Positions 16,976-62,792 of a stretch of 64,000 nt of DNA are shown piece by piece. Under the pieces are notes generated by a model. It saw nothing but the letters and a program-made list of their open reading frames with translations, was not told the DNA's origin and searched no databases. Both the position numbers and the translations under genes were made by a program. The stretch is from IMG/VR virus record IMGVR_UViG_3300027747_002638; one strand, given 5' to 3'. Positions within the stretch are counted from its first letter, which is position 1; every line of letters starts with the position of its first letter. The DNA comes from a virus.

Positions 16976-19900
16976 TTAAAACTCCACAGTTAATTTTGGA
17001 ATATCTTTTCGTTCTGCCGTGAAACTCCAATAAAATTCATATTCATTTTTATCAAACCAGCCGCGATTCATACCTACTGTGAAATTATTTTCATTAACAT
17101 CAACTTCTTTAACAAATAAAGCTTTATCATGATTAATGTTTGTGAGTTGTATGTTTACTTTATCTTCATTAACTAATGATGAGATATATTCTGGAAGATA
17201 TACTTTAACTACCTCGGCGCGGATTTTATTTTTATCTGTTAATCTAATTCCGTGATAAGGAGATTCCAAACTTCCATATTGAAGTTTTTTGCCAACTTGA
17301 GTTGGATGGTCTATCAAGAATGATTTAGAAGCCGCAGAAAGGTGACCAGTTATTGTTGTATTACCACTTACTGTAACATTGCCTTGTAATATGCTATTTC
17401 CACTAACATAAAATCTACTTGGCGCAGAAGATATACCACTACCAATACCAAAATTACCATTTGAATCTAATATAAGATTCTTATTATAAGATGATCCATT
17501 GTATCCTTGAAGTATAAAAGATTTTGTGCCACCTCCACCATAAGTAATAGTAAAATCATCATTATCTCTACTGCCAACATTAGAAGAATAAAGATAATTA
17601 GAAAATAAAGCTCCAGCACCTCCATTTTGTGTTGGATTAAAAAATACGCTATTATTACCATTTTGCTCTTTTAATATAAAGCTACTATTATTGGGTGGAT
17701 TTGGATTACTTATTATTACTGCACCAGATGGATTAATATTTATATTATTGCCAGTTAATGTGACATCTCTTAATATACCAGAAGTTGTTCTTTGAGAACC
17801 AATTACAAATTGATTGTTTCTCCATCCAATTAATCCAAATTCACCAGAATTAACTCCAGTTGCGTTATAAGAATAAAAATCACCAGAAGGTAACGTTAAA
17901 TTATTATTGATTGTTAAATTACCATCTATTAGTTCATCTGTTTTAAATATATGAATTGGAGTAGAGGTATTTGAAGAAACACCGATTACATATTTTGCAT
18001 TACTAGACATAGCGACTGTCCATACTCCTGAACTAGGAGTTATTAATTTCCATGTGTTTCCATAATCGCTAGAAAAATAAATTCCACCAGTGCTAACAAA
18101 GTATCCTCCAATTCCAGCAACCATATATTTTCCATTATCTGATATTGCAACGCTAAAATAAGTTGCAGCAGTTGATTTTGCAATAAATGTATTTCCGTAA
18201 TCATTAGAAATATAAACATTTGTTGCAGAGCTGTTTCTACAATATATCACATATTTTCCATCTGCAGATGTTGCAATAGAAGTATAAGAATTGTACGAGC
18301 CACTCTGAATGGTAACCCAAGTATTACCATAATCCGAAGATTTATATATATTACCATTACCGCCAAAATTTTCTGTTGCATATTGATATTTTCCATCACT
18401 ACTCATTGCAACTGAAGTGTAAATTGTAGTCGTACCTTTAGGTATCCAAGTATTGCCATAGTCACTCGAAATATATATTTGAAGACTTTGTGTTCCATAA
18501 GCTCCACCAGTAGCAGTTTGATATTTTCCATCGCTACTCATAGCAACTGCTGTCCAATATCTTACAGAATCTTTTGCTGTCCAAGTATTGCCATAATCAT
18601 TAGATATATAAATATAACCATTATGATGACATGCAGTTTGATATTTACCATCCGCAGATATTGCAACTCCTCGCCATAGTCTAGTAGCATCTGTTATTCT
18701 TGGTGTCCATGTATTACCATGATCATTAGATACATAAACATATCCATTGCTAGGACCATAATCTCCAACTGCAGTAATTTGATATCTTCCATCACTAGAA
18801 ACTGCTGCACTTCTAAAAATTTGATTAGGTGCAGTTGTGCTTTTTCTAACATAATTATTTCCAAAACTAGATTCAACTAATTGAACTGTATTTTGACTTA
18901 ATTTTGTTCTACCTAAGAAATATCCACCTTCGTAGTTTCCTGTATAATTTCCAGTAAATCCAAGACCAGTTATATATCCAGTTATATTTCCAGAGCATTG
19001 ACTTGTTTGTAATAAGTGATCATTTAAACTAGAAGTTCCATTTATATAAAGTCTTCCACTTCTAGGAGATAAAGCAATATTCTCACCAGTAATTATAACA
19101 TCTCGTAGTACGCCAGAATTTGAAGTTTGAGCTCCAATCAAAAGAGCATTTGATCCAGTAGATACTATTCCTAGATTAGGTTGCCAACCAATTAGTGCGA
19201 ATTCGCCGCTATTAGTTCCTGTGCTATTAAATATTCTTAAACTTTGAGGACTTGTACCACTATAAATATCTATACCAGATGTGAATGTTTTTAAACCATT
19301 TATTGTTTGATTGCTGGTTGTATTAACATATAAACTTGGAGTTACATTTACTCCACTAACTTGTAAAACCATTCCATTATTAACATCAACTTTATTATTA
19401 TCAATAACAACACCAACAAATGCATATGGAAATGCACCAATATTTCCACTTCTATATATATTTATTGTTTTATTTATAGAATACGAATTATTTATATCAA
19501 TATTACCAAAAACAGTATTTGTACCAGCATAATTTGGACTAGCTCCAGCGTAAATATTAATTCCACCAGCACTATTATTTGTGCCTGTACCTGCTGTTAG
19601 ATTTATATTTGATGTATTAGCACTAAAAAAAGCACTATTTCCAGCATTTATATTGATTGCTCCACCACCAACAGGAATCGTAGTTCCTCCATGACCAGCT
19701 TGTATATTAATTGCACGATTTAGTTGACTAACTACTTCTCCACTAAAACCAATAATATCTAAACTACTTCCTGATACTCCAGAAATATATTTTGTGCTTA
19801 ATCCAGTATTAAAAGTTTTAAGTCCAGAGATAGTTTGATTTCCTGTTGTAAAAACAATATTGCTGTTTGGAGAATTAATATAACCACTTAAATTATTAAT

Positions 19901-43212: not shown

Positions 43213-45111
43213 ATGAAGAAAAATACCAAAAAAATACAAGAAATTAAAGCATCTACAGAAGAGCAAATATCACCATTAATGGTTTATGGTTCAGAAAGAA
43301 AATTAACAGCTTCAGAAGCAAGAGGAAGTTCACCAGTTAGAAGAAATGCTGCTAGTACGATTGAAAGAACTAATAGATTTACAAATATTGATACTGGAAT
43401 TATTCCATTTAGATATTCTAATTATATTAATAATTTATCTACCCTAGATGTAAGAGATGCTGTTATACTTTGTCAAAAAGCTTATTATAATGTTGCAATT
43501 TTCAGAAACACAATAGATTTAATGACAGAATTCTCTGCTAGTTCTATTTATTTAACTGGTGGAAGTCAAAAATCAAGAGAATTTTTCGATGCTTATTTTA
43601 AAAAAATTAATTTAACAAGTTTTCAAGATCAATTTTTTAGAGAATACTATAGAAGTGGCAATGTATTTACTTACAGATTTGATACTTCTTTGGATTCTGA
43701 GCAAGTATTAAAAATCACTCAAGTATTTGGTTCAAAAGCTTTAGCTAAAGACGGATCAATTAAAATTCCTGTAAGATATACTATAATTAATCCAGCAGAT
43801 GTTTATGTTGCTGGTGGAGTAAATTATTCTTATAATATATATTATAAACTATTAAGTAGTTACGAATTAGAAAAACTTAGAGATCCAAAAACTGACGAAG
43901 ATATAGAAGTTTACGAAGGACTACCAGCCGATATAAAAGAAAAGATAAAAAATAAAGGTAACTCTTATATTTTAGTTCCATTAGATCCTAAAAAGATGGC
44001 TGCAGTTTTTTATAAAAAACAAGATTACGAACCACTCTCAATTCCAATGGGTTTTCCAGTATTAGATGATATTAACTGGAAATTAGAAATGAAAAAAATG
44101 GATATGGCAGTTACAAGAACAACTCAACAGGCTATTCTTTTAGTTACTATGGGTAACGAGCCTGATAAAGGTGGAATCAATCAGAAAAATTTACAATCCA
44201 TGCAGCAATTATTTGAAAATCAAAGTGTTGGTAGAGTATTAATCGCAGATTATACAACCAAAGCTCAATTCGTAATTCCTGATATCGGAAGTTTAATCGG
44301 ACCAGAGAAATATGAAGTAGTTGATAGAGATATTCAAATTGGATTAAATAATATTCTTATTGGCAGTGAAAAATTTGCTAATACAAGTATTAAAGTGCAA
44401 GTGTTTATGGAAAGACTAAAGCAAGCAAGAGAAGTTTTCTTAAATGAATTTTTAATACCAGAAATAAGAAGAATTAGTAAAGATTTAGGATTTAAGAATT
44501 TTCCAGTTCCAGTATTTGAAGATATTAGTCTTAAAGATGATGTACAATATTCTAGAATATACAACAGATTGGTTGAGCTCGGCGTATTAACTGCTGACGA
44601 AGGAATTCAAGCTATAGAAACTGGAAGATTGCCTACTCCAGAAGAATCTGCACAATCTCAACAAAAATTTAGAGAATTAAAAGATCAAGGATTTTATCAA
44701 CCACTTATTGGTGGTGGTGCTCAAGCTGGAAGACCTATGGGTTCAACTGGTACTCCTCAGTCTACAAAAAATGTAAAACCAATTGGTAGTTCAAAAGCCT
44801 TTTCTGTTCTTAAGATAAGAGAAAATATTTTAGCTGTTCAAGATCTTGAAGAAGAAGTCAAAGGTTCTTTAAGAAAAAAATTTGAAATCAAGAAATTAAG
44901 TAATGCACAAAAAGACATGGCAGAAAAAATTACAGAATTAATTATAGCAAATGAAGATTCTAGTCAGTGGAAAGCAAAAATACAAGATTATATTGAAAAA
45001 CCATTTGATCAAAATTTAAATCAAGTAAATGAAATTCAATCAATTGCTTCCGAGCATCAAGTCGATAGTTATTTAGCTAGTTTATTGTATCACAGCAAAA
45101 AATCTGAATAA
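43213..45111 (+). CDS. Portal protein
   Basis: 632 aa directly after terL; FRNTIDL…EYYRSGNVF portal-like segment. Confidence 0.75.
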   Translation: MKKNTKKIQEIKASTEEQISPLMVYGSERKLTASEARGSSPVRRNAASTIERTNRFTNIDTGIIPFRYSNYINNLSTLDVRDAVILCQKAYYNVAIFRNTIDLMTEFSASSIYLTGGSQKSREFFDAYFKKINLTSFQDQFFREYYRSGNVFTYRFDTSLDSEQVLKITQVFGSKALAKDGSIKIPVRYTIINPADVYVAGGVNYSYNIYYKLLSSYELEKLRDPKTDEDIEVYEGLPADIKEKIKNKGNSYILVPLDPKKMAAVFYKKQDYEPLSIPMGFPVLDDINWKLEMKKMDMAVTRTTQQAILLVTMGNEPDKGGINQKNLQSMQQLFENQSVGRVLIADYTTKAQFVIPDIGSLIGPEKYEVVDRDIQIGLNNILIGSEKFANTSIKVQVFMERLKQAREVFLNEFLIPEIRRISKDLGFKNFPVPVFEDISLKDDVQYSRIYNRLVELGVLTADEGIQAIETGRLPTPEESAQSQQKFRELKDQGFYQPLIGGGAQAGRPMGSTGTPQSTKNVKPIGSSKAFSVLKIRENILAVQDLEEEVKGSLRKKFEIKKLSNAQKDMAEKITELIIANEDSSQWKAKIQDYIEKPFDQNLNQVNEIQSIASEHQVDSYLASLLYHSKKSE

Positions 45112-46849: not shown

Positions 46850-47779
46850 TTACACTAATAGTCCTGTTATATTTAAAGCTATATTTTCTGTTCTTTCTAT
46901 AATAGATAAGTTATTAAGTAATATTCTTTCGCCAGTTATATATGCTCCACCTGGAATATATGTTGAACCAATATAAAATCCATCGCTTAAATTTAATCTA
47001 TTCGTACCTTTACCAATAAATACTCCATATCCTTGTAAACTGATATCATTATCTGAAATTAAAGATATAGAATTTCCGTCTTTGGCTGTTTCTAATGTTA
47101 TATCTTGATTTAAAATTAAAGATGCTGTACTGTATATGCCTGACTGATTGTAATTGTCACCTTGAACTCCTGCGTTTACTCCAGCCAATTTTATTCCATT
47201 TGATCCTAATGTTATATATGAGATAGAATCTGTTCTCTCTGCGCTGTAACCATCAGTTTTCAACCAATTATTAGTTTGTATCTTTATTGATGTTCCTGTA
47301 TATGGATAATAATTTTTTGCGCTAGGAATATTTTCATATTGAGGACCAGCTAGATATGATCCTATAACTAAATTAGGATAAGTATCAATTTTATTATAAA
47401 CTCCATAGTATCCAGTTGGAGTTGGTGGGCTAAATTTATTTTTTAAATATATTCCGTTTGCAAAATCTATAGTTAATGCGTTAGATTGATCCGCATAATG
47501 ATTTCTATTATCTCCATCAGCGATTAATGATGCACCATTTTGATTTTTAATAACACCATTTTGTCCTGCAATTATTGTGGATGAAATACTATTTATGATT
47601 TGATTATTGTATCCTCCAACTACAGTAGAATAACTTCCAGATACTGTATTATTTTCTCCTCCACCAATTGTTTGTGCTTGTCCTGCTCTTGAAGCTGTAT
47701 TTGAATTATTCTCTCGGAAACTACTTAAAGTTCCATCTGCATTATAAACTCCATATAAATTTTCGTTATTTGTTATCAT
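46850..47779 (-). CDS. Fibre-like protein
   Basis: IGGG..N / VVGG..N repeats. Confidence 0.6.
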   Translation of the reverse strand: MITNNENLYGVYNADGTLSSFRENNSNTASRAGQAQTIGGGENNTVSGSYSTVVGGYNNQIINSISSTIIAGQNGVIKNQNGASLIADGDNRNHYADQSNALTIDFANGIYLKNKFSPPTPTGYYGVYNKIDTYPNLVIGSYLAGPQYENIPSAKNYYPYTGTSIKIQTNNWLKTDGYSAERTDSISYITLGSNGIKLAGVNAGVQGDNYNQSGIYSTASLILNQDITLETAKDGNSISLISDNDISLQGYGVFIGKGTNRLNLSDGFYIGSTYIPGGAYITGERILLNNLSIIERTENIALNITGLLV

Positions 47780-48818: not shown

Positions 48819-49256
48819 TTATGAAATTCCTGCTGTAGATTCCAAACATACCCATCCAGTATAATTATTATTAATTACACCAACCAAAGCAATTGAAGCT
48901 GGGGCAGGAAGTGCTAGAGTAGAATCTGAATTATCAAAAATTTGATTAGTATTGTATCCAGTAATAATTAATGGATTTGTAGATTTTAAATTTTTTATAA
49001 TAATTGTTTTTTTATCAGTTATATCTGGTAAGGACGCTGTATAAGAACCATTTGTTCCAGTGCAATAAAATATATTTATATAATTCGTTACATTAAAATT
49101 TGTGTCTGAATAGAAATTGTAATTAGATTGAATATTATCACCTAAGATTAAATTAGCGCCTTGATCATTTCCAGTTATACGAGGATACCTTAAATCTAAT
49201 TGACCAGTATTAGTCAGTTGCTGTGTAAAAATTTGTAATCCATTAAATGTACGCAT
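48819..49256 (-). CDS. Virion protein, MRTFNGLQIF family
   Basis: N-terminus nearly identical to that of 51340..51627. Confidence 0.6.
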   Translation of the reverse strand: MRTFNGLQIFTQQLTNTGQLDLRYPRITGNDQGANLILGDNIQSNYNFYSDTNFNVTNYINIFYCTGTNGSYTASLPDITDKKTIIIKNLKSTNPLIITGYNTNQIFDNSDSTLALPAPASIALVGVINNNYTGWVCLESTAGIS

Positions 49257-49265
49257 ACCATATAT

Positions 49266-49436
49266 TTACACCAATACACCAGTTATATTTAACGAAAAAT
49301 TAGAATTGCTTGGGTTAATGTAAATTCCGCTTTCAAAAACGGCTATTTTTTTATTATCAAAATTTAAGTTAGATTCTTCAACTTTTATAAGTTTACCATC
49401 CAAGTTTATGTATTTTAAATCTATTTTAGTGTTCAT
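49266..49436 (-). CDS. Small protein (56 aa)
   Basis: Start moved to the ATG at 49436; C-terminus LNITGVLV matches LNITGLLV of 46850..47779. Confidence 0.5.
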   Translation of the reverse strand: MNTKIDLKYINLDGKLIKVEESNLNFDNKKIAVFESGIYINPSNSNFSLNITGVLV

Positions 49437-49613
49437 AATTTTATAGTCCCTCTGGTAACGTGACCCCCTCTTTGTGTTCGCACACATCCAGAGTAATCAC
49501 ATGAAAAAAATGCGGTTTACTTTTTACGATAAACCCCAATATTCTCTTGACTTTCTTAAGGCCACCCGAGAGCGACCAACAAGTTGTCACGTTACTAGAG
49601 CTGTATAATTGAT
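49437..49613. ncRNA. Candidate structured RNA / cis-regulatory leader
   Basis: 15-bp terminal inverted repeat CTCTGGTAACGTGAC/GTCACGTTACTAGAG enclosing three hairpins; GC-richer than the flanks. Confidence 0.55.
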
Positions 49614-51338
49614 TTACCATTTTATTACACTTTGATTTGTTGGACTATTGAAATCTGGTCTAGATTTATATATGAATAATTCATTTTGTTCAAAACTATA
49701 ATCTTTTCCAGATAATACATAAAATGGATTTGAATCATATGCGCCGTTATCTCTTTCGTCATAAAATTCTATATTCTTACTATATCCACTATAAATTTTT
49801 TCTAATACTGGATAGAAATTTCTAATTACTAATTGCTCTTGAACGGTCCTAGTATCATTTTCATAGTTAAATTTCATATTAACTTTTTTACCTTGATGAA
49901 GGTTTGGAGATAATGGTCTTTTAAAATTAACTTTTTCTTTGATTATTAATTCGTTTGGCATTGTAGTAGAGTATGTATATGGAAAAACATCTAATCCTTG
50001 ATTATCAAATATAATATATGGATAGTATAATTTTATATTTGGATTAACTCCATTCGCAATTGGAGACCAATTATAACTATTTATTGTAAATTTAGAATAT
50101 TGATTAATTTTTGAAATTGGTAATGATGAAATTGAATTTTTACTAGTAATATATGCTCCAGTGGGTTTATTTGTGGTAGTATTAAAACCATTCCATGAGC
50201 TATTATTAGAATACAATAAGCCTATGGAAGAGTAATAAGGATATATAGAAGCATCTGTGCAACCTTGACTGACTCTTATAGAAGAATTGTCAGTCACTCC
50301 TGTCCAGTTAAAATAATTATATGCATAATAAGGATTTATGTCTTGACGTTTTGGATTTGCATAAATTTTATGAGTATATGCATATGATGTTACTGATGTT
50401 GTTTTGTATATACTATTAAAATTAATTGAATCTGGAGATATTGTATAACTAACTCCTGTATTTTTTGGTTGAGCTAAAACCCATCTATTGGTATTTCCAC
50501 TATTATATATTCTATAATTATTTTCATTAATATAATTATTGCTACTTTTATATACATACATTCCATTTGCTTCTGAATAGGAAGATCCGCTTACTATTAA
50601 TACATCTCCACTAGCAATTTGTTGAAATTGTCCTGCAAAAGATAAATTTTTTGTACTATTTCCATAATTTATATTTGCTCCACTTTTTATATTAAGTTTA
50701 ATAAATGTTTCTAAGTGGTGATTTTTTGGTTGTACAGTTATTGGTACACCACTCCATAAATTATATTCAGTATGGCCATTGCCAATGACTGGATGAAATC
50801 TTACTGACTGCAATGCTAAATTTTTGTATCTACTTTGAGGATTAAATACTACAAAATTATTATTTCCAGAAACTCCAGTGAAAAGATTTGATGGCGTTTT
50901 TTCGTAACTGTTTGGTCTATTTCCATCATTTTCAATAACCATATAAGGTTTTGCTCTCAGAGATGATATGTATCTTGCATTATTTGAATCTGTATTTAAT
51001 CCAGACTCCAAAAGACTACTTTTTGGTTCGATAGTGAAATAAACAAAATTTCCAGGTTCTAGCCCAGAAGGAATACCTTGTAAACCGGTATTTTCATTTA
51101 TATATCTTCTAAAAGAATTTCCTTCTAAACCAATACTTAACCATTTTTGTTTTCTATATTTATTTTTATCTGTAGAACCTGCTGGTACTGGTGGAAAAAA
51201 ACCAGTATAAACATTATCAATAAAAAATTGTTGACCGCTAGATATTGTAATTCCTTGATTAGCATTAATATAACTAAAGCCTACATTAGGAATTGATTGG
51301 AGACTTAAAACTTGATTGTATATATTATTTGTTGGCAT
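49614..51338 (-). CDS. Hypothetical Asn/Tyr-rich virion protein
   Basis: 574-aa ORF in the fibre cluster. Confidence 0.6.
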   Translation of the reverse strand: MPTNNIYNQVLSLQSIPNVGFSYINANQGITISSGQQFFIDNVYTGFFPPVPAGSTDKNKYRKQKWLSIGLEGNSFRRYINENTGLQGIPSGLEPGNFVYFTIEPKSSLLESGLNTDSNNARYISSLRAKPYMVIENDGNRPNSYEKTPSNLFTGVSGNNNFVVFNPQSRYKNLALQSVRFHPVIGNGHTEYNLWSGVPITVQPKNHHLETFIKLNIKSGANINYGNSTKNLSFAGQFQQIASGDVLIVSGSSYSEANGMYVYKSSNNYINENNYRIYNSGNTNRWVLAQPKNTGVSYTISPDSINFNSIYKTTSVTSYAYTHKIYANPKRQDINPYYAYNYFNWTGVTDNSSIRVSQGCTDASIYPYYSSIGLLYSNNSSWNGFNTTTNKPTGAYITSKNSISSLPISKINQYSKFTINSYNWSPIANGVNPNIKLYYPYIIFDNQGLDVFPYTYSTTMPNELIIKEKVNFKRPLSPNLHQGKKVNMKFNYENDTRTVQEQLVIRNFYPVLEKIYSGYSKNIEFYDERDNGAYDSNPFYVLSGKDYSFEQNELFIYKSRPDFNSPTNQSVIKW

Positions 51339-51339
51339 A

Positions 51340-51627
51340 TTAATTTAAAACCCAATTTGTTGCAATTGAAGTTGCTCTCCAATCTCCATTCATTCCATTT
51401 CCACTAACACAAATAAAAATATAATCTCTATTAAAAGCTATTTGTCCACTATATCCTGGAGAATTAGGCGTAGAAGGTACATAATTTGGATTAAAAATTA
51501 AATTATTTTTTAGAGTTTTTTGTCCAGTTATAGTTTGATCTGTATTTAAAGTTACATATCGAGAATCTAATTGACCAGAATTAGTCAGTTGCTGTGTAAA
51601 AATTTGTAATCCATTAAATGTACGCAT
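51340..51627 (-). CDS. Virion protein, MRTFNGLQIF family
   Basis: QTITGQKT and P…G..GQIAF…YIFIC…W.A adaptor motifs. Confidence 0.6.
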   Translation of the reverse strand: MRTFNGLQIFTQQLTNSGQLDSRYVTLNTDQTITGQKTLKNNLIFNPNYVPSTPNSPGYSGQIAFNRDYIFICVSGNGMNGDWRATSIATNWVLN

Positions 51628-51641
51628 TTTAAATGATTACA

Positions 51642-51695
51642 CTAATGATCCTTCAACTGATCAGTAAAAATTTGAAGTCCATTGAATGTGCGCAT
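51642..51695 (-). pseudogene. Truncated third MRTFNGLQIF paralogue (17 codons)
   Basis: ATG CGC ACA TTC AAT GGA CTT CAA ATT TTT ACT GAT CAG TTG AAG GAT CAT TAG, with its own GTGTAA 8 nt upstream. Confidence 0.65.
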
Positions 51696-60309: not shown

Positions 60310-60347
60310 AAATATTGATTTAAAACCAATATAGTGTAATATAAGTT

Positions 60348-60524
60348 ATGAAGGTTTCTGGTTTACTTGAATCGTCTGCTCTATATAAAAAGTTTGTTGA
60401 AGAGCGAAATGAAATCCTAAAGCACAAATGGCTCGAAAGCGAAAAAGCTGGCCACGATATTGGTTTTGAAAAAGCTCTGTTAGATTGGGTTTTCAATCAC
60501 AGAGAAAAATGGCGTAATAAATAA
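60348..60524 (+). CDS. DUF4032-like small protein (58 aa); not in the ORF track
   Basis: ERNEILKHKWLESEKAGHDIGFEKALLDW; GTGTAA 8 nt upstream. Confidence 0.75.
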   Translation: MKVSGLLESSALYKKFVEERNEILKHKWLESEKAGHDIGFEKALLDWVFNHREKWRNK

Positions 60525-62595: not shown

Positions 62596-62662
62596 AGGTT
62601 TAATATACAACAATTAGAGAAATAGTCAATAAAAATAATTCGTTGAATGATAAGGCTTTACA

Positions 62663-62753
62663 TACTAGGGGAAGGATTCGAACCTTCATTACGCTCAAAT
62701 CTAGAGCTTCACGAGTATAAGTCGTGGGTCTTAACCAGTTAGACGACCCTAGC
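62663..62753 (-). tRNA. tRNA-Ile(UAU) with long variable arm
   Basis: GCTAGGG/CCCTAGT; CACGA-CTTATAC-TCGTG; 22-nt variable region with GCTC/GAGC stem; GAAGG-TTCGAAT-CCTTC. Confidence 0.85.
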
Positions 62754-62792
62754 AATCAACACCAAGCCGTAGCTCAATGTCAGCCTCCGAAG

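What the first reader, a model, noticed from the sequence alone, without database searches (positions are those of the whole stretch)
49437..49613. Candidate ~175-nt structured RNA between fibre genes
Seen: a GC-richer intergenic island is closed by a 15-bp stem with one mismatch or wobble, extendable by TTATA/TATAA. On the minus strand it encloses three arms: CUCU..UGGC-CUUAAGAAA-GUCA-AGAG; GGUUUA-UCGUAAAAAG-UAAACC; and CUCU-GGA-UGUGU-GCGA-ACACA-A-AGAG, with a GNRA tetraloop. A GTGTAA late motif at 49625-30 would start transcription just upstream. The 3' stem strand carries GAGGG 11 nt before the ATG at 49436. An alternative rod-like fold with a central bubble is also possible. Inference: either a translation-controlling leader or a free sRNA. 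Its size and rod fold would suit a 6S-like decoy of host sigma70-RNAP in a phage that has its own sigma. The strand is not certain.
Basis: partly seen in the sequence, partly recalled or inferred. Interest (0 to 1): 0.7.

Follow-up and report, generated by a model that had tools for sequence, protein, structure and literature searches.

The report
Translated four-arm RNA between phage fibre genes
Between two tail-fibre gene modules of an uncultured lake phage lies a real, conserved, roughly 150-base four-armed RNA fold found in no RNA catalogue. A small reading frame is kept open right through it, so it most likely gates translation of the next fibre module rather than acting as a free 6S-like RNA.

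Summary
On the window's minus strand, 49450-49602 folds into a four-way junction. P1 is a 15-17 bp closing stem that hardly varies, and it encloses three hairpins (P2, P3, P4).

Fifteen distinct copies exist in freshwater viral and metagenome contigs. Each lies between a large fibre gene and a small fibre-anchor gene. Covariation is strong: 24 of 50 pairs change on both sides, and the score is 0.436 against 0.168 in shuffles (0 of 500 reach it). G-U pairs place the RNA on the fibre-gene strand. Rfam 15 has no match, 6S included.

An ORF of 54-67 codons crosses the whole fold:
- It starts within 7 nt of the fibre stop codon and ends near the next gene's ATG.
- It has no internal stop in any of the 15 copies, whereas the other five frames carry 0-7 stops each.
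- Its peptide is not conserved, because the frame differs over the conserved nucleotide blocks.

The closing stems P0 and P1 enclose the downstream ribosome-binding site.

Best reading (about 45%): a ribosome-transit-dependent coupler or gate for the next receptor-binding module. The 6S-like decoy, own-promoter, MITE and inverton readings are not supported. It is a new RNA family with a narrow distribution, and its function is inferred, not shown.

The parts
49614..51338 (-). Upstream 574-aa fibre-module gene. Its stop codon is at 49614-49616.
   Evidence: ORF list. Seven IMG/VR relatives at 50-90% identity all carry the RNA just downstream. No Pfam, PHROG or PDB match. The fibre assignment rests on the neighbours, which include Laminin_G_3 proteins and anchor-domain genes.
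49441..49620 (-). Leader ORF of 59 codons plus stop. It runs through the whole RNA fold. Its ATG (49618-49620) overlaps the end of the fibre gene, and its TAA (49441-49443) lies 4 nt before the next ATG.
   Evidence: It has no internal stop in any of the 15 copies, against 0-7 stops in each of the other five frames. The ATG-to-P1 distance is 14, 17 or 20 nt. The peptide is not conserved.
49604..49608 (-). P0, 5' strand (UUAUA). It lies in leader codons 5-6.
   Evidence: It pairs with 49441-49445. Relatives have a helix at the same place with a different sequence.
49586..49600 (-). P1, 5' strand. It is 15 nt and nearly invariant.
   Evidence: Eleven of 16 pairs never vary, and two show compensatory changes.
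49555..49583 (-). P2 hairpin: an outer 4-bp helix, an inner 7-bp helix and a CUCG loop.
   Evidence: It folds as a hairpin in all 15 copies, with unrelated sequences. Helices 2 and 3 have 9 of 11 pairs with changes on both sides.
49495..49552 (-). P3 long arm. It consists of P3a (AGUC/GAUU, invariant, with a G-U pair), a conserved 4x4 internal loop, P3b (GAGAR/YUC) and the variable apical hairpin P3c.
   Evidence: One P3b pair switches G-C to A-U in 6 of 15 copies. All 6 P3c pairs covary.
49466..49493 (-). P4 hairpin: an outer CYCU/AGGG helix and an inner 5-bp helix with a GCGA loop.
   Evidence: All 4 pairs of helix 8 show changes on both sides, and 100% of its cells are paired.
49450..49464 (-). 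P1, 3' strand. Its last four bases (49450-49453) are the start of the Shine-Dalgarno sequence AGAGGGA (49447-49453).
49441..49445 (-). P0, 3' strand (UAUAA). It lies in the spacer between the Shine-Dalgarno sequence and the ATG.
49266..49436 (-). Downstream small ORF of 56 aa. In the window it is a chimera. The first 31 codons come from the conserved 63-85-aa anchor-type gene that always follows the RNA. They are fused to the last 25 codons of a fibre gene.
   Evidence: Relatives have a full-length 63-85-aa gene. The C-terminal motif of the 73-85-aa forms (tested with the L015 protein) matches the N-terminal anchors of annotated tail-fibre and tailspike genes.

Best explanation
The element is a cis-acting, translated, structured intercistronic RNA on the fibre-gene strand. 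It is a four-way junction whose closing stems P0 and P1 enclose the ribosome-binding site of the next gene, a small anchor protein that begins the next receptor-binding module.

**Proposed course (inferred)**
1. Ribosomes finishing the fibre gene restart at the leader ATG, which lies within 7 nt of the fibre stop and has no evident Shine-Dalgarno sequence of its own.
2. Translating the leader melts P0 and then the 5' strand of P1.
3. In most lineages the freed inner half of the 3' strand can then pair with the invariant GUGAUU segment. This extends P4 and leaves the Shine-Dalgarno sequence and the ATG single-stranded.
4. The leader ribosome reads through the whole fold and stops at or near the downstream ATG, where it or a fresh 30S subunit initiates.

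Expression of the next module is thereby tied to, and limited by, translation of the fibre gene. Whether a factor also binds the conserved P3 loop or the P1 core is unknown.

**Shown**
- The fold and the strand.
- The fixed position of the element.
- The open frame and its stop and start geometry.
- The overlap of P0 and P1 with the ribosome-binding site.

**Inferred**
- Reinitiation at the leader ATG.
- Unmasking of the ribosome-binding site.
- The alternative hairpin.
For: **Fold**
- 15 distinct copies.
- 91.6% of cells are paired, 24 of 50 pairs change on both sides, and the covariation score is 0.436 against 0.168 in shuffles (0 of 500 reach it) and 0.07-0.15 when partners are slid.
- RNAalifold on the same model-fitted alignment returns the same eight helices.
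- Ten of 15 copies give the full junction when folded alone.

**Strand**
- 69 G-U cells against 25 A-C cells, and one G-U pair is invariant.

**Translation**
- The leader frame has no internal stop in any of the 15 copies. The other five frames have 0-7 stops each.
- The chance of an open frame per copy in dinucleotide shuffles is 0.03-0.62. The product over nine lineages is 10^-8.7 if they are treated as independent.
- ATG-to-P1 spacing differs only by multiples of three.
- Third-codon-position changes are in excess in one lineage.

**Geometry**
- The leader ATG lies -7 to +5 nt from the end of the fibre stop.
- The leader stop lies -17 to +18 nt from the next ATG, and five copies have an ATGA overlap.
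- Neighbouring genes in these modules are otherwise 1-9 nt apart.

**Masking of the ribosome-binding site**
- The P1 pair under the first Shine-Dalgarno bases covaries.
- P0 covers the spacer and covaries in sequence.
- With the 5' arm removed, 7 of 9 lineages fold the extended P4 hairpin.
- With the 5' arm blocked, modelled unpaired probability of spacer plus ATG rises from 0.48 to 0.70.

**No separate transcript signals**
- No terminator follows the fold, and there is no conserved promoter.
Against: - There is no expression data of any kind.
- Modelled unmasking of the Shine-Dalgarno bases is weak and uneven: the mean goes from 0.37 to 0.48, and it falls in the window, L019, L017, L022 and L029.
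- The window itself and L017 do not give the alternative hairpin as their best fold.
- Every column of that alternative helix is invariant, so covariation cannot test it.
- A simple hairpin would be enough for coupling. The model does not explain three maintained arms, an invariant 16-bp stem and a conserved internal loop.
- In L012, L019 and L022 the leader stops 15-18 nt before the ATG, inside the 3' arm.
- The leader peptide is absent from a 5.8-billion protein collection, so gene callers never called it.
- The nine lineages are related, so the 10^-8.7 figure is too optimistic.
Confidence: 0.45

Rival explanations
1. It is a processed stand-alone RNA. The long P0-loop-P1 duplex is an RNase III-type processing site in the late polycistronic mRNA. 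Cleavage releases a stable four-armed RNA that acts in trans on an unknown partner, for example a protein that binds the conserved P3 loop. Cleavage also separates the two fibre messages.
For: - The near-perfect sequence conservation of the 16-bp P1 and of the P3 loop goes beyond what pairing alone needs.
- P0, an internal loop and P1 together give a duplex of about 25 bp, the general form of T7-type RNase III sites (and established knowledge of T7 processing signals).
- The three maintained arms suggest a folded particle.
Against: - The open reading frame through the fold and its start and stop geometry have no role in this model.
- No RNase III or other RNA-processing gene was found among 57 ORFs of the window, although a host enzyme could serve.
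- Hairpin loops vary freely, so no conserved loop is available for base-pairing in trans.
Confidence: 0.25
2. It is a new self-cleaving ribozyme built on a four-way junction. It would cut the late mRNA between the fibre modules.
For: - Small ribozymes are common in phage genomes (established knowledge).
- The element is a four-way junction with one conserved internal loop.
- The purine-rich conserved blocks recall the hairpin ribozyme, but that resemblance is from memory only.
Against: - No Rfam ribozyme family matches at E <= 10 in three copies.
- Only one conserved internal loop is present, and the junction linkers vary in length and sequence.
- The invariant positions are mostly inside helices.
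- The open frame argues for an intact, translated message.
Confidence: 0.07
3. It is mainly a small protein gene of 54-67 aa, and the RNA fold only tunes the gene's own translation or stability.
For: - The frame is open in all copies.
- Indels between the ATG and P1 are in frame.
- The L014, L020 and L029 trio shows a third-position excess: 17 of 25 and 13 of 19 substitutions.
Against: - The frame over the conserved nucleotide blocks differs between lineages, so beyond the first 12 residues or so the peptides are unrelated.
- Close pairs differ mostly by non-synonymous changes that are compensatory in the stems.
- There are no homologues in the protein collection.
Confidence: 0.08
4. It is a DNA-level element: a MITE, an invertible switch bounded by the inverted repeats, or a recombination linker for swapping fibre modules.
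For: - The arms are 15-17 bp inverted repeats that are almost identical in phages whose fibre proteins are only about 50% identical.
- Fibre modules in this clade are clearly shuffled.
Against: - There is one copy per contig, always at the same junction, with none elsewhere in 237 kb searched with the model and none in 185,579 genomes by the arm pattern.
- The interior has the same orientation relative to the flanks in all 15 copies.
- No integrase, invertase or transposase family appeared among the Pfam hits for 57 ORFs of the window.
- The three inner hairpins covary, and G-U pairs favour one strand.
- The observed recombination junction lies about 90 nt downstream, inside the small gene.
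Confidence: 0.03
5. It is a 6S-like decoy of host RNA polymerase.
For: - The size of about 150-180 nt fits.
- The phage encodes a protein with a sigma-70 region 2 domain.
Against: - No 6S match in Rfam.
- The conserved fold is branched, with no central bubble.
- There is no conserved promoter and no terminator.
- A frame is kept open through it.
Confidence: 0.02

Closest known systems
Long-range translational coupling: the Min Jou interaction between the MS2 coat and replicase genes, and the E. coli rpmI-rplT pair
   Same: The downstream start site is held in base pairs with a sequence that lies inside an upstream translated frame, so ribosomes reading that frame open it.
   Different: - Here the upstream frame is a dedicated leader with no conserved peptide.
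- The leader lies between two genes and crosses an ornate four-way junction.
- Neither the pairing partners nor the family is related.
- The effect on expression is not shown.
Leader-peptide translational attenuators (ermC and cat type)
   Same: - There is a short leader ORF.
- There are four interacting segments.
- A ribosome on segment 1 would free a partner so that the downstream Shine-Dalgarno sequence is exposed.
- The invariant segments have two possible partners.
   Different: - The erm and cat leaders are 8-19 codons and stop well before the regulated site. They depend on drug-induced stalling at a conserved peptide.
- Here the leader is 54-67 codons, reads through everything and ends at the next start codon.
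- No stalling motif is known here.
Phage T7-type RNase III processing signals
   Same: It is an intercistronic long duplex interrupted by an internal loop, in a late polycistronic message.
   Different: - T7 sites are simple stem-loop-stem hairpins of about 60 nt with no branched interior.
- They are not translated through.
- Cleavage was not tested here.
6S RNA (Rfam RF00013 and relatives)
   Same: The length is similar, and the 5' and 3' ends pair.
   Different: The fold is branched rather than a rod with a bubble. There is no sequence or structure match and no sign of a separate transcript.
Unnamed candidate structured RNAs from IMG/VR (DNAVirus_n set, PMC10690425)
   Same: That catalogue mined the intergenic regions of IMG/VR 3.0, an earlier release of the collection that holds most copies found here. 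Its motifs reach 151 nt.
   Different: I could not check whether this motif is listed, because the supplements are not held. If it is listed, it would be as an uncharacterised alignment, with no mention of the through-reading frame as far as the main text shows.

Membership tests
6S RNA | Matches the Rfam 6S covariance models | tested here: not met
   No 6S hit at E <= 10 over 49000-50000 on both strands, or in L022 and L029.
6S RNA | Rod-like fold with a large central bubble that mimics an open promoter | tested here: not met
   The conserved fold is a four-way junction with eight helices.
6S RNA | Binds the sigma-70 holoenzyme and templates product RNA | not testable with these tools
   This needs biochemistry.
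Any Rfam 15 family (riboswitches, ribozymes, sRNAs, leaders) | Covariance-model match at or near the gathering score | tested here: not met
   The window has only tRNAs above threshold, and nothing overlaps the element at E <= 10.
MITE or other mobile palindromic element | Several copies at different sites, target-site duplication, empty sites in relatives | tested here: not met
   There is a single copy per contig at one conserved junction. The flanks are inverted, not direct, repeats. No relative has the fibre gene without the element.
Invertible promoter (inverton) | Both orientations of the segment between the inverted repeats, with a recombinase nearby | tested here: not met
   All 15 copies have the same orientation relative to the flanking genes. 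No recombinase family appeared among the Pfam hits for 57 ORFs of the window. Read-level data were not available.
Leader-peptide or long-range translational coupling device | An upstream translated frame that overlaps the strand pairing with the downstream ribosome-binding site | tested here: met
   The leader frame is open in 15 of 15 copies and covers the 5' strands of P0 and P1. The 3' strands carry the Shine-Dalgarno sequence and the spacer.
Leader-peptide or long-range translational coupling device | Downstream expression depends on translation of the leader | not testable with these tools
   Only thermodynamic modelling was possible, and it gives a modest and uneven effect.
RNase III processing site | A duplex of about two helical turns that RNase III cleaves | tested here: inconclusive
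   The duplex length is met: P0 of 5-7 bp, an internal loop, then P1 of 15-17 bp. Cleavage cannot be tested here.
Independent sRNA gene | Its own conserved promoter and an intrinsic terminator | tested here: not met
   GTGTAA is not conserved in relatives. No terminator-like site follows the fold, and promoter-like sites are no more frequent than in shuffles.

The most novel reading that the evidence does not exclude
The invariant core, made up of the P1 duplex, the P3a/P3b internal loop and P4a, is a docking site for a phage or host factor or a small ligand. Binding would decide whether ribosomes leaving one fibre gene can read on into the next receptor-binding module. That would make it a sensor embedded in an open reading frame and read out by ribosome transit, controlling which fibre set the virion carries. 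Alternatively, the same core is a trans-acting particle released from the message.
Probability: 0.15. Interest if true: 0.8.

Novelty: new variant of a known kind. Interest (0 to 1): 0.6.

Why it matters
Phage host range is set by receptor-binding modules, and little is known about how phages with several fibre sets balance their expression. This is a well-supported RNA fold at a module boundary. It is absent from Rfam 15 and has an unusual property: selection keeps a frame open through an ornate fold while ignoring the peptide. If the coupling model holds, it adds a distinct design to the small set of ribosome-operated RNA switches. It also gives a compact test system of about 190 nt. If the model fails, a conserved four-armed phage RNA of unknown role remains to be explained.

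Tried and rejected
**Searches that found nothing**
- DNA similarity to 50,697 phage records, both near the element and over 1.1 kb, gave no match.
- No whole genome is held for this window.
- The arm pattern gave 0 hits in 185,579 genomes. The small protein gave none there either, so the host is unknown.
- An interior-motif pattern found no members with divergent arms.
- The leader peptide found no homologue in the large protein collection.
- The supplements of PMC10690425 are not held.
- PDB sequence searches with the fibre protein and the small protein gave nothing.

**Chance hits discarded**
- L013 and L040 are chance pattern hits inside coding regions.
- L031 is an unrelated long palindrome.

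**Methods that fell short**
- The plain MAFFT alignment misaligned the variable hairpins. RNAalifold on it found only parts of the fold, so covariance-model alignments were used instead.

**Ideas considered and dropped**
- Stop-codon readthrough or frameshift from the fibre gene into the leader. The frame relation between the two differs among lineages.
- Translational bypass, a DGR template, a retron, a tRNA-like or tmRNA gene, and a group I intron (too small, and no Rfam match).

Full report
**What is in the window.** Genes around the finding run on the minus strand. A 574-aa gene ends at 49614, and the next ATG is at 49436. The 177-nt gap is richer in G+C than its flanks. On the minus strand it folds to -57.7 kcal/mol with z = -4.7. 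The plus strand folds less well, at -44.2 kcal/mol. The inverted repeat that closes it is the second longest of the short-range inverted repeats in the 64-kb window, and its 9-nt core occurs nowhere else there. Rfam 15 gives no match to the element at E <= 10. In the whole window only four tRNAs pass the gathering threshold.

**Relatives.** No cultured phage matches the DNA. A protein search with the 574-aa gene found seven IMG/VR contigs at 50-90% identity, and each carries the element directly after the gene. Pattern scans with the two arms raised this to 15 distinct copies in viral and freshwater metagenome contigs, and found none in 185,579 prokaryote genomes.

Every copy has the same neighbours. 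Upstream is a large gene that mostly ends in the same few residues (...KW). Downstream is a small gene of 63-85 aa. The C-terminal motif of the 73-85-aa forms of that small protein (tested with the L015 protein) matches the N-terminal anchor region of annotated tail-fibre and tailspike genes in Klebsiella and Synechococcus phages. The RNA therefore sits between two receptor-binding modules.

In the window the small gene is a 56-aa chimera. Its first 31 codons are fused to the last 25 codons of a fibre gene. Contigs L008 and L009 share the downstream module but not the 574-aa gene within the stretch fetched, and they lack the element.

**The fold.**
- Folded alone, 10 of 15 copies give the same four-way junction, and all 15 form P1.
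- Cut at the conserved blocks, the P2 and P4 segments fold as hairpins in all 15 copies, and the P3 segment in 12. The stem sequences are unrelated between lineages.
- A covariance model built on two copies, and then rebuilt on 13, aligns all 15 at 96-148 bits. The opposite strand reaches at most 65 bits, and no second copy turns up in 237 kb.
- On that alignment 91.6% of cells pair, 24 of 50 pairs change on both sides (115 cells), and the covariation score is 0.436. Shuffles give 0.168, with 0 of 500 reaching the observed value. Slid partners give 0.07-0.15.
- RNAalifold on the same alignment returns the same eight helices.
- The alignment is fitted to the model, which favours pairing. The independent single-sequence folds argue that the result is not an artefact of this.

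P1, P3a, the P3 internal loop with P3b, and P4a are conserved in sequence. P2, P3c and P4b are conserved only as helices.

**Strand.** Wobble pairs number 69. There are 25 A-C cells, which would be wobble pairs on the other strand. One G-U pair in P3a is invariant. The RNA is therefore on the fibre-gene strand, the window's minus strand.

**A frame kept open.** An ATG lies between 7 nt before and 5 nt after the end of the fibre stop codon. It opens a frame that crosses the entire fold in all 15 copies, for 54-67 codons.

- This frame has no internal stop in any copy. In three copies its own terminating TAG lies inside the 3' arm. Each of the other five frames has 0-7 stops.
- Dinucleotide shuffles of the interior leave the frame open with probability 0.03-0.62 per copy. 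The product over nine lineage representatives is 10^-8.7, an overstatement because the lineages are related.
- The ATG-to-P1 distance is 14, 17 or 20 nt.
- The frame over the later conserved blocks differs between lineages, so the peptides are unrelated after about 12 residues.
- Close pairs differ mostly by non-synonymous changes that are compensatory in the stems.
- Only the L014, L020 and L029 trio shows an excess of third-position changes.
- The leader stops 17 nt past to 18 nt before the next ATG, with an ATGA overlap in five copies.
- Other genes in these modules are 1-9 nt apart. The leader thus looks like a bridge that preserves translational continuity across the RNA.

**The ribosome-binding site is inside the closing stems.**
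- The last four bases of the P1 3' strand begin the Shine-Dalgarno sequence, and that pair covaries (U-A to C-G in L010 and L011).
- Beyond a small internal loop that holds the rest of the Shine-Dalgarno sequence, a 5-7 bp A-U helix, P0, pairs the first leader codons (3-6) with the spacer before the ATG. Its sequence differs between lineages while its position is kept.
- With the 5' arm removed, 7 of 9 lineages fold an extended P4 hairpin. In it the invariant GUGAUU pairs with the inner half of the P1 3' strand.
- With the 5' arm blocked, modelled unpaired probability of spacer plus ATG rises from 0.48 to 0.70. For the Shine-Dalgarno bases it rises only from 0.37 to 0.48, and it falls in five copies, the window's included.
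- Segments with two alternative partners would explain why they cannot vary. For the same reason, covariation cannot test the alternative helix.

**What it is not.**
- GTGTAA at 49625-49630 lies in the last fibre codons and is replaced in most lineages of relatives. Elsewhere in the window the hexamer typically lies 9 nt before start codons, but here it lies 4 nt from the leader ATG.
- No terminator follows the fold.
- Pfam hits among 57 ORFs of the window include a sigma-70 region 2 protein, PhoH, ArdC and a terminase. They include no reverse transcriptase, recombinase or RNA-processing enzyme.
- The MITE, inverton, DGR, retron, tmRNA and 6S readings each fail a defining test (see the membership table).

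**Verdict.** The structure, its strand, its fixed position and the open frame are shown by computation. The function is inferred. I put about 45% on a ribosome-operated coupler or gate for the next fibre module, 25% on a processed trans-acting RNA, and smaller shares on a ribozyme, a bona fide small protein, a DNA-level element or a 6S-like RNA. The family is absent from Rfam 15 and is known only from one clade of uncultured freshwater phages. It may be among the unnamed IMG/VR motifs of PMC10690425, which I could not check.

Noticed in passing
window 49338-49345, and the same point in L012-L026: The homology blocks shared between phages break inside the small anchor gene, at the conserved LYFDNKK stretch (about codon 31), not at gene borders. 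The fibre gene, the RNA and the first 31 codons travel as one unit. The anchor C-terminus travels with the next fibre. For example, L015 and L017 share the C-terminal part, while L017 and L022 share the N-terminal part. The window's 56-aa ORF is a deletion chimera at this same point.
   Followed up: partly
window 51553-51643, 49186-49271, 45007-45099: About 90 nt at the start of each small gene of a fibre module, including 15 nt upstream, is repeated at 77-92% identity, both within the window and across relatives. These repeats look like linkers for cassette exchange of receptor-binding modules.
   Followed up: partly
window 49266-49271, 51637-51642, 46850-46855 (minus strand): GTGTAA lies exactly 9 nt before the ATG of three fibre-module genes. 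The hexamer occurs 41 times in the window, against 31 +/- 5 expected by chance. This agrees with earlier notes of a late-gene signal. Whether it is a promoter or an initiation signal is open.
   Followed up: partly
window 49327-49342 (minus strand): The only terminator-like hairpin within 1.4 kb lies inside the chimeric 56-aa ORF, at the recombination junction.
   Followed up: no
window 62662-62754 (minus strand): The tRNA-Ile with anticodon UAU is 93 nt long, which is unusually long. It may carry an intron or a long extra arm.
   Followed up: no
window 17694-17845 and 60319-60470: Two more 18-nt inverted repeats (89% complementary) each have 116 nt between the arms. This is close to the spacing in the element studied here (121 nt between the 15-nt P1 arms). 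The first lies inside the 2083-aa ORF.
   Followed up: no
L031 2300-2600 (Ga0209781_1000877): An unrelated, nearly perfect palindrome of about 250 bp shares the 14-nt string GGTAACGTGACCCC with the window's 3' arm. It was picked up only because of the search pattern.
   Followed up: no
L014, L020, L029: In this sub-lineage the fibre-RNA-small gene unit lies directly upstream of the terminase and portal block and points the same way. In the window the two blocks are divergent. The small protein there lacks the C-terminal anchor motif.
   Followed up: no
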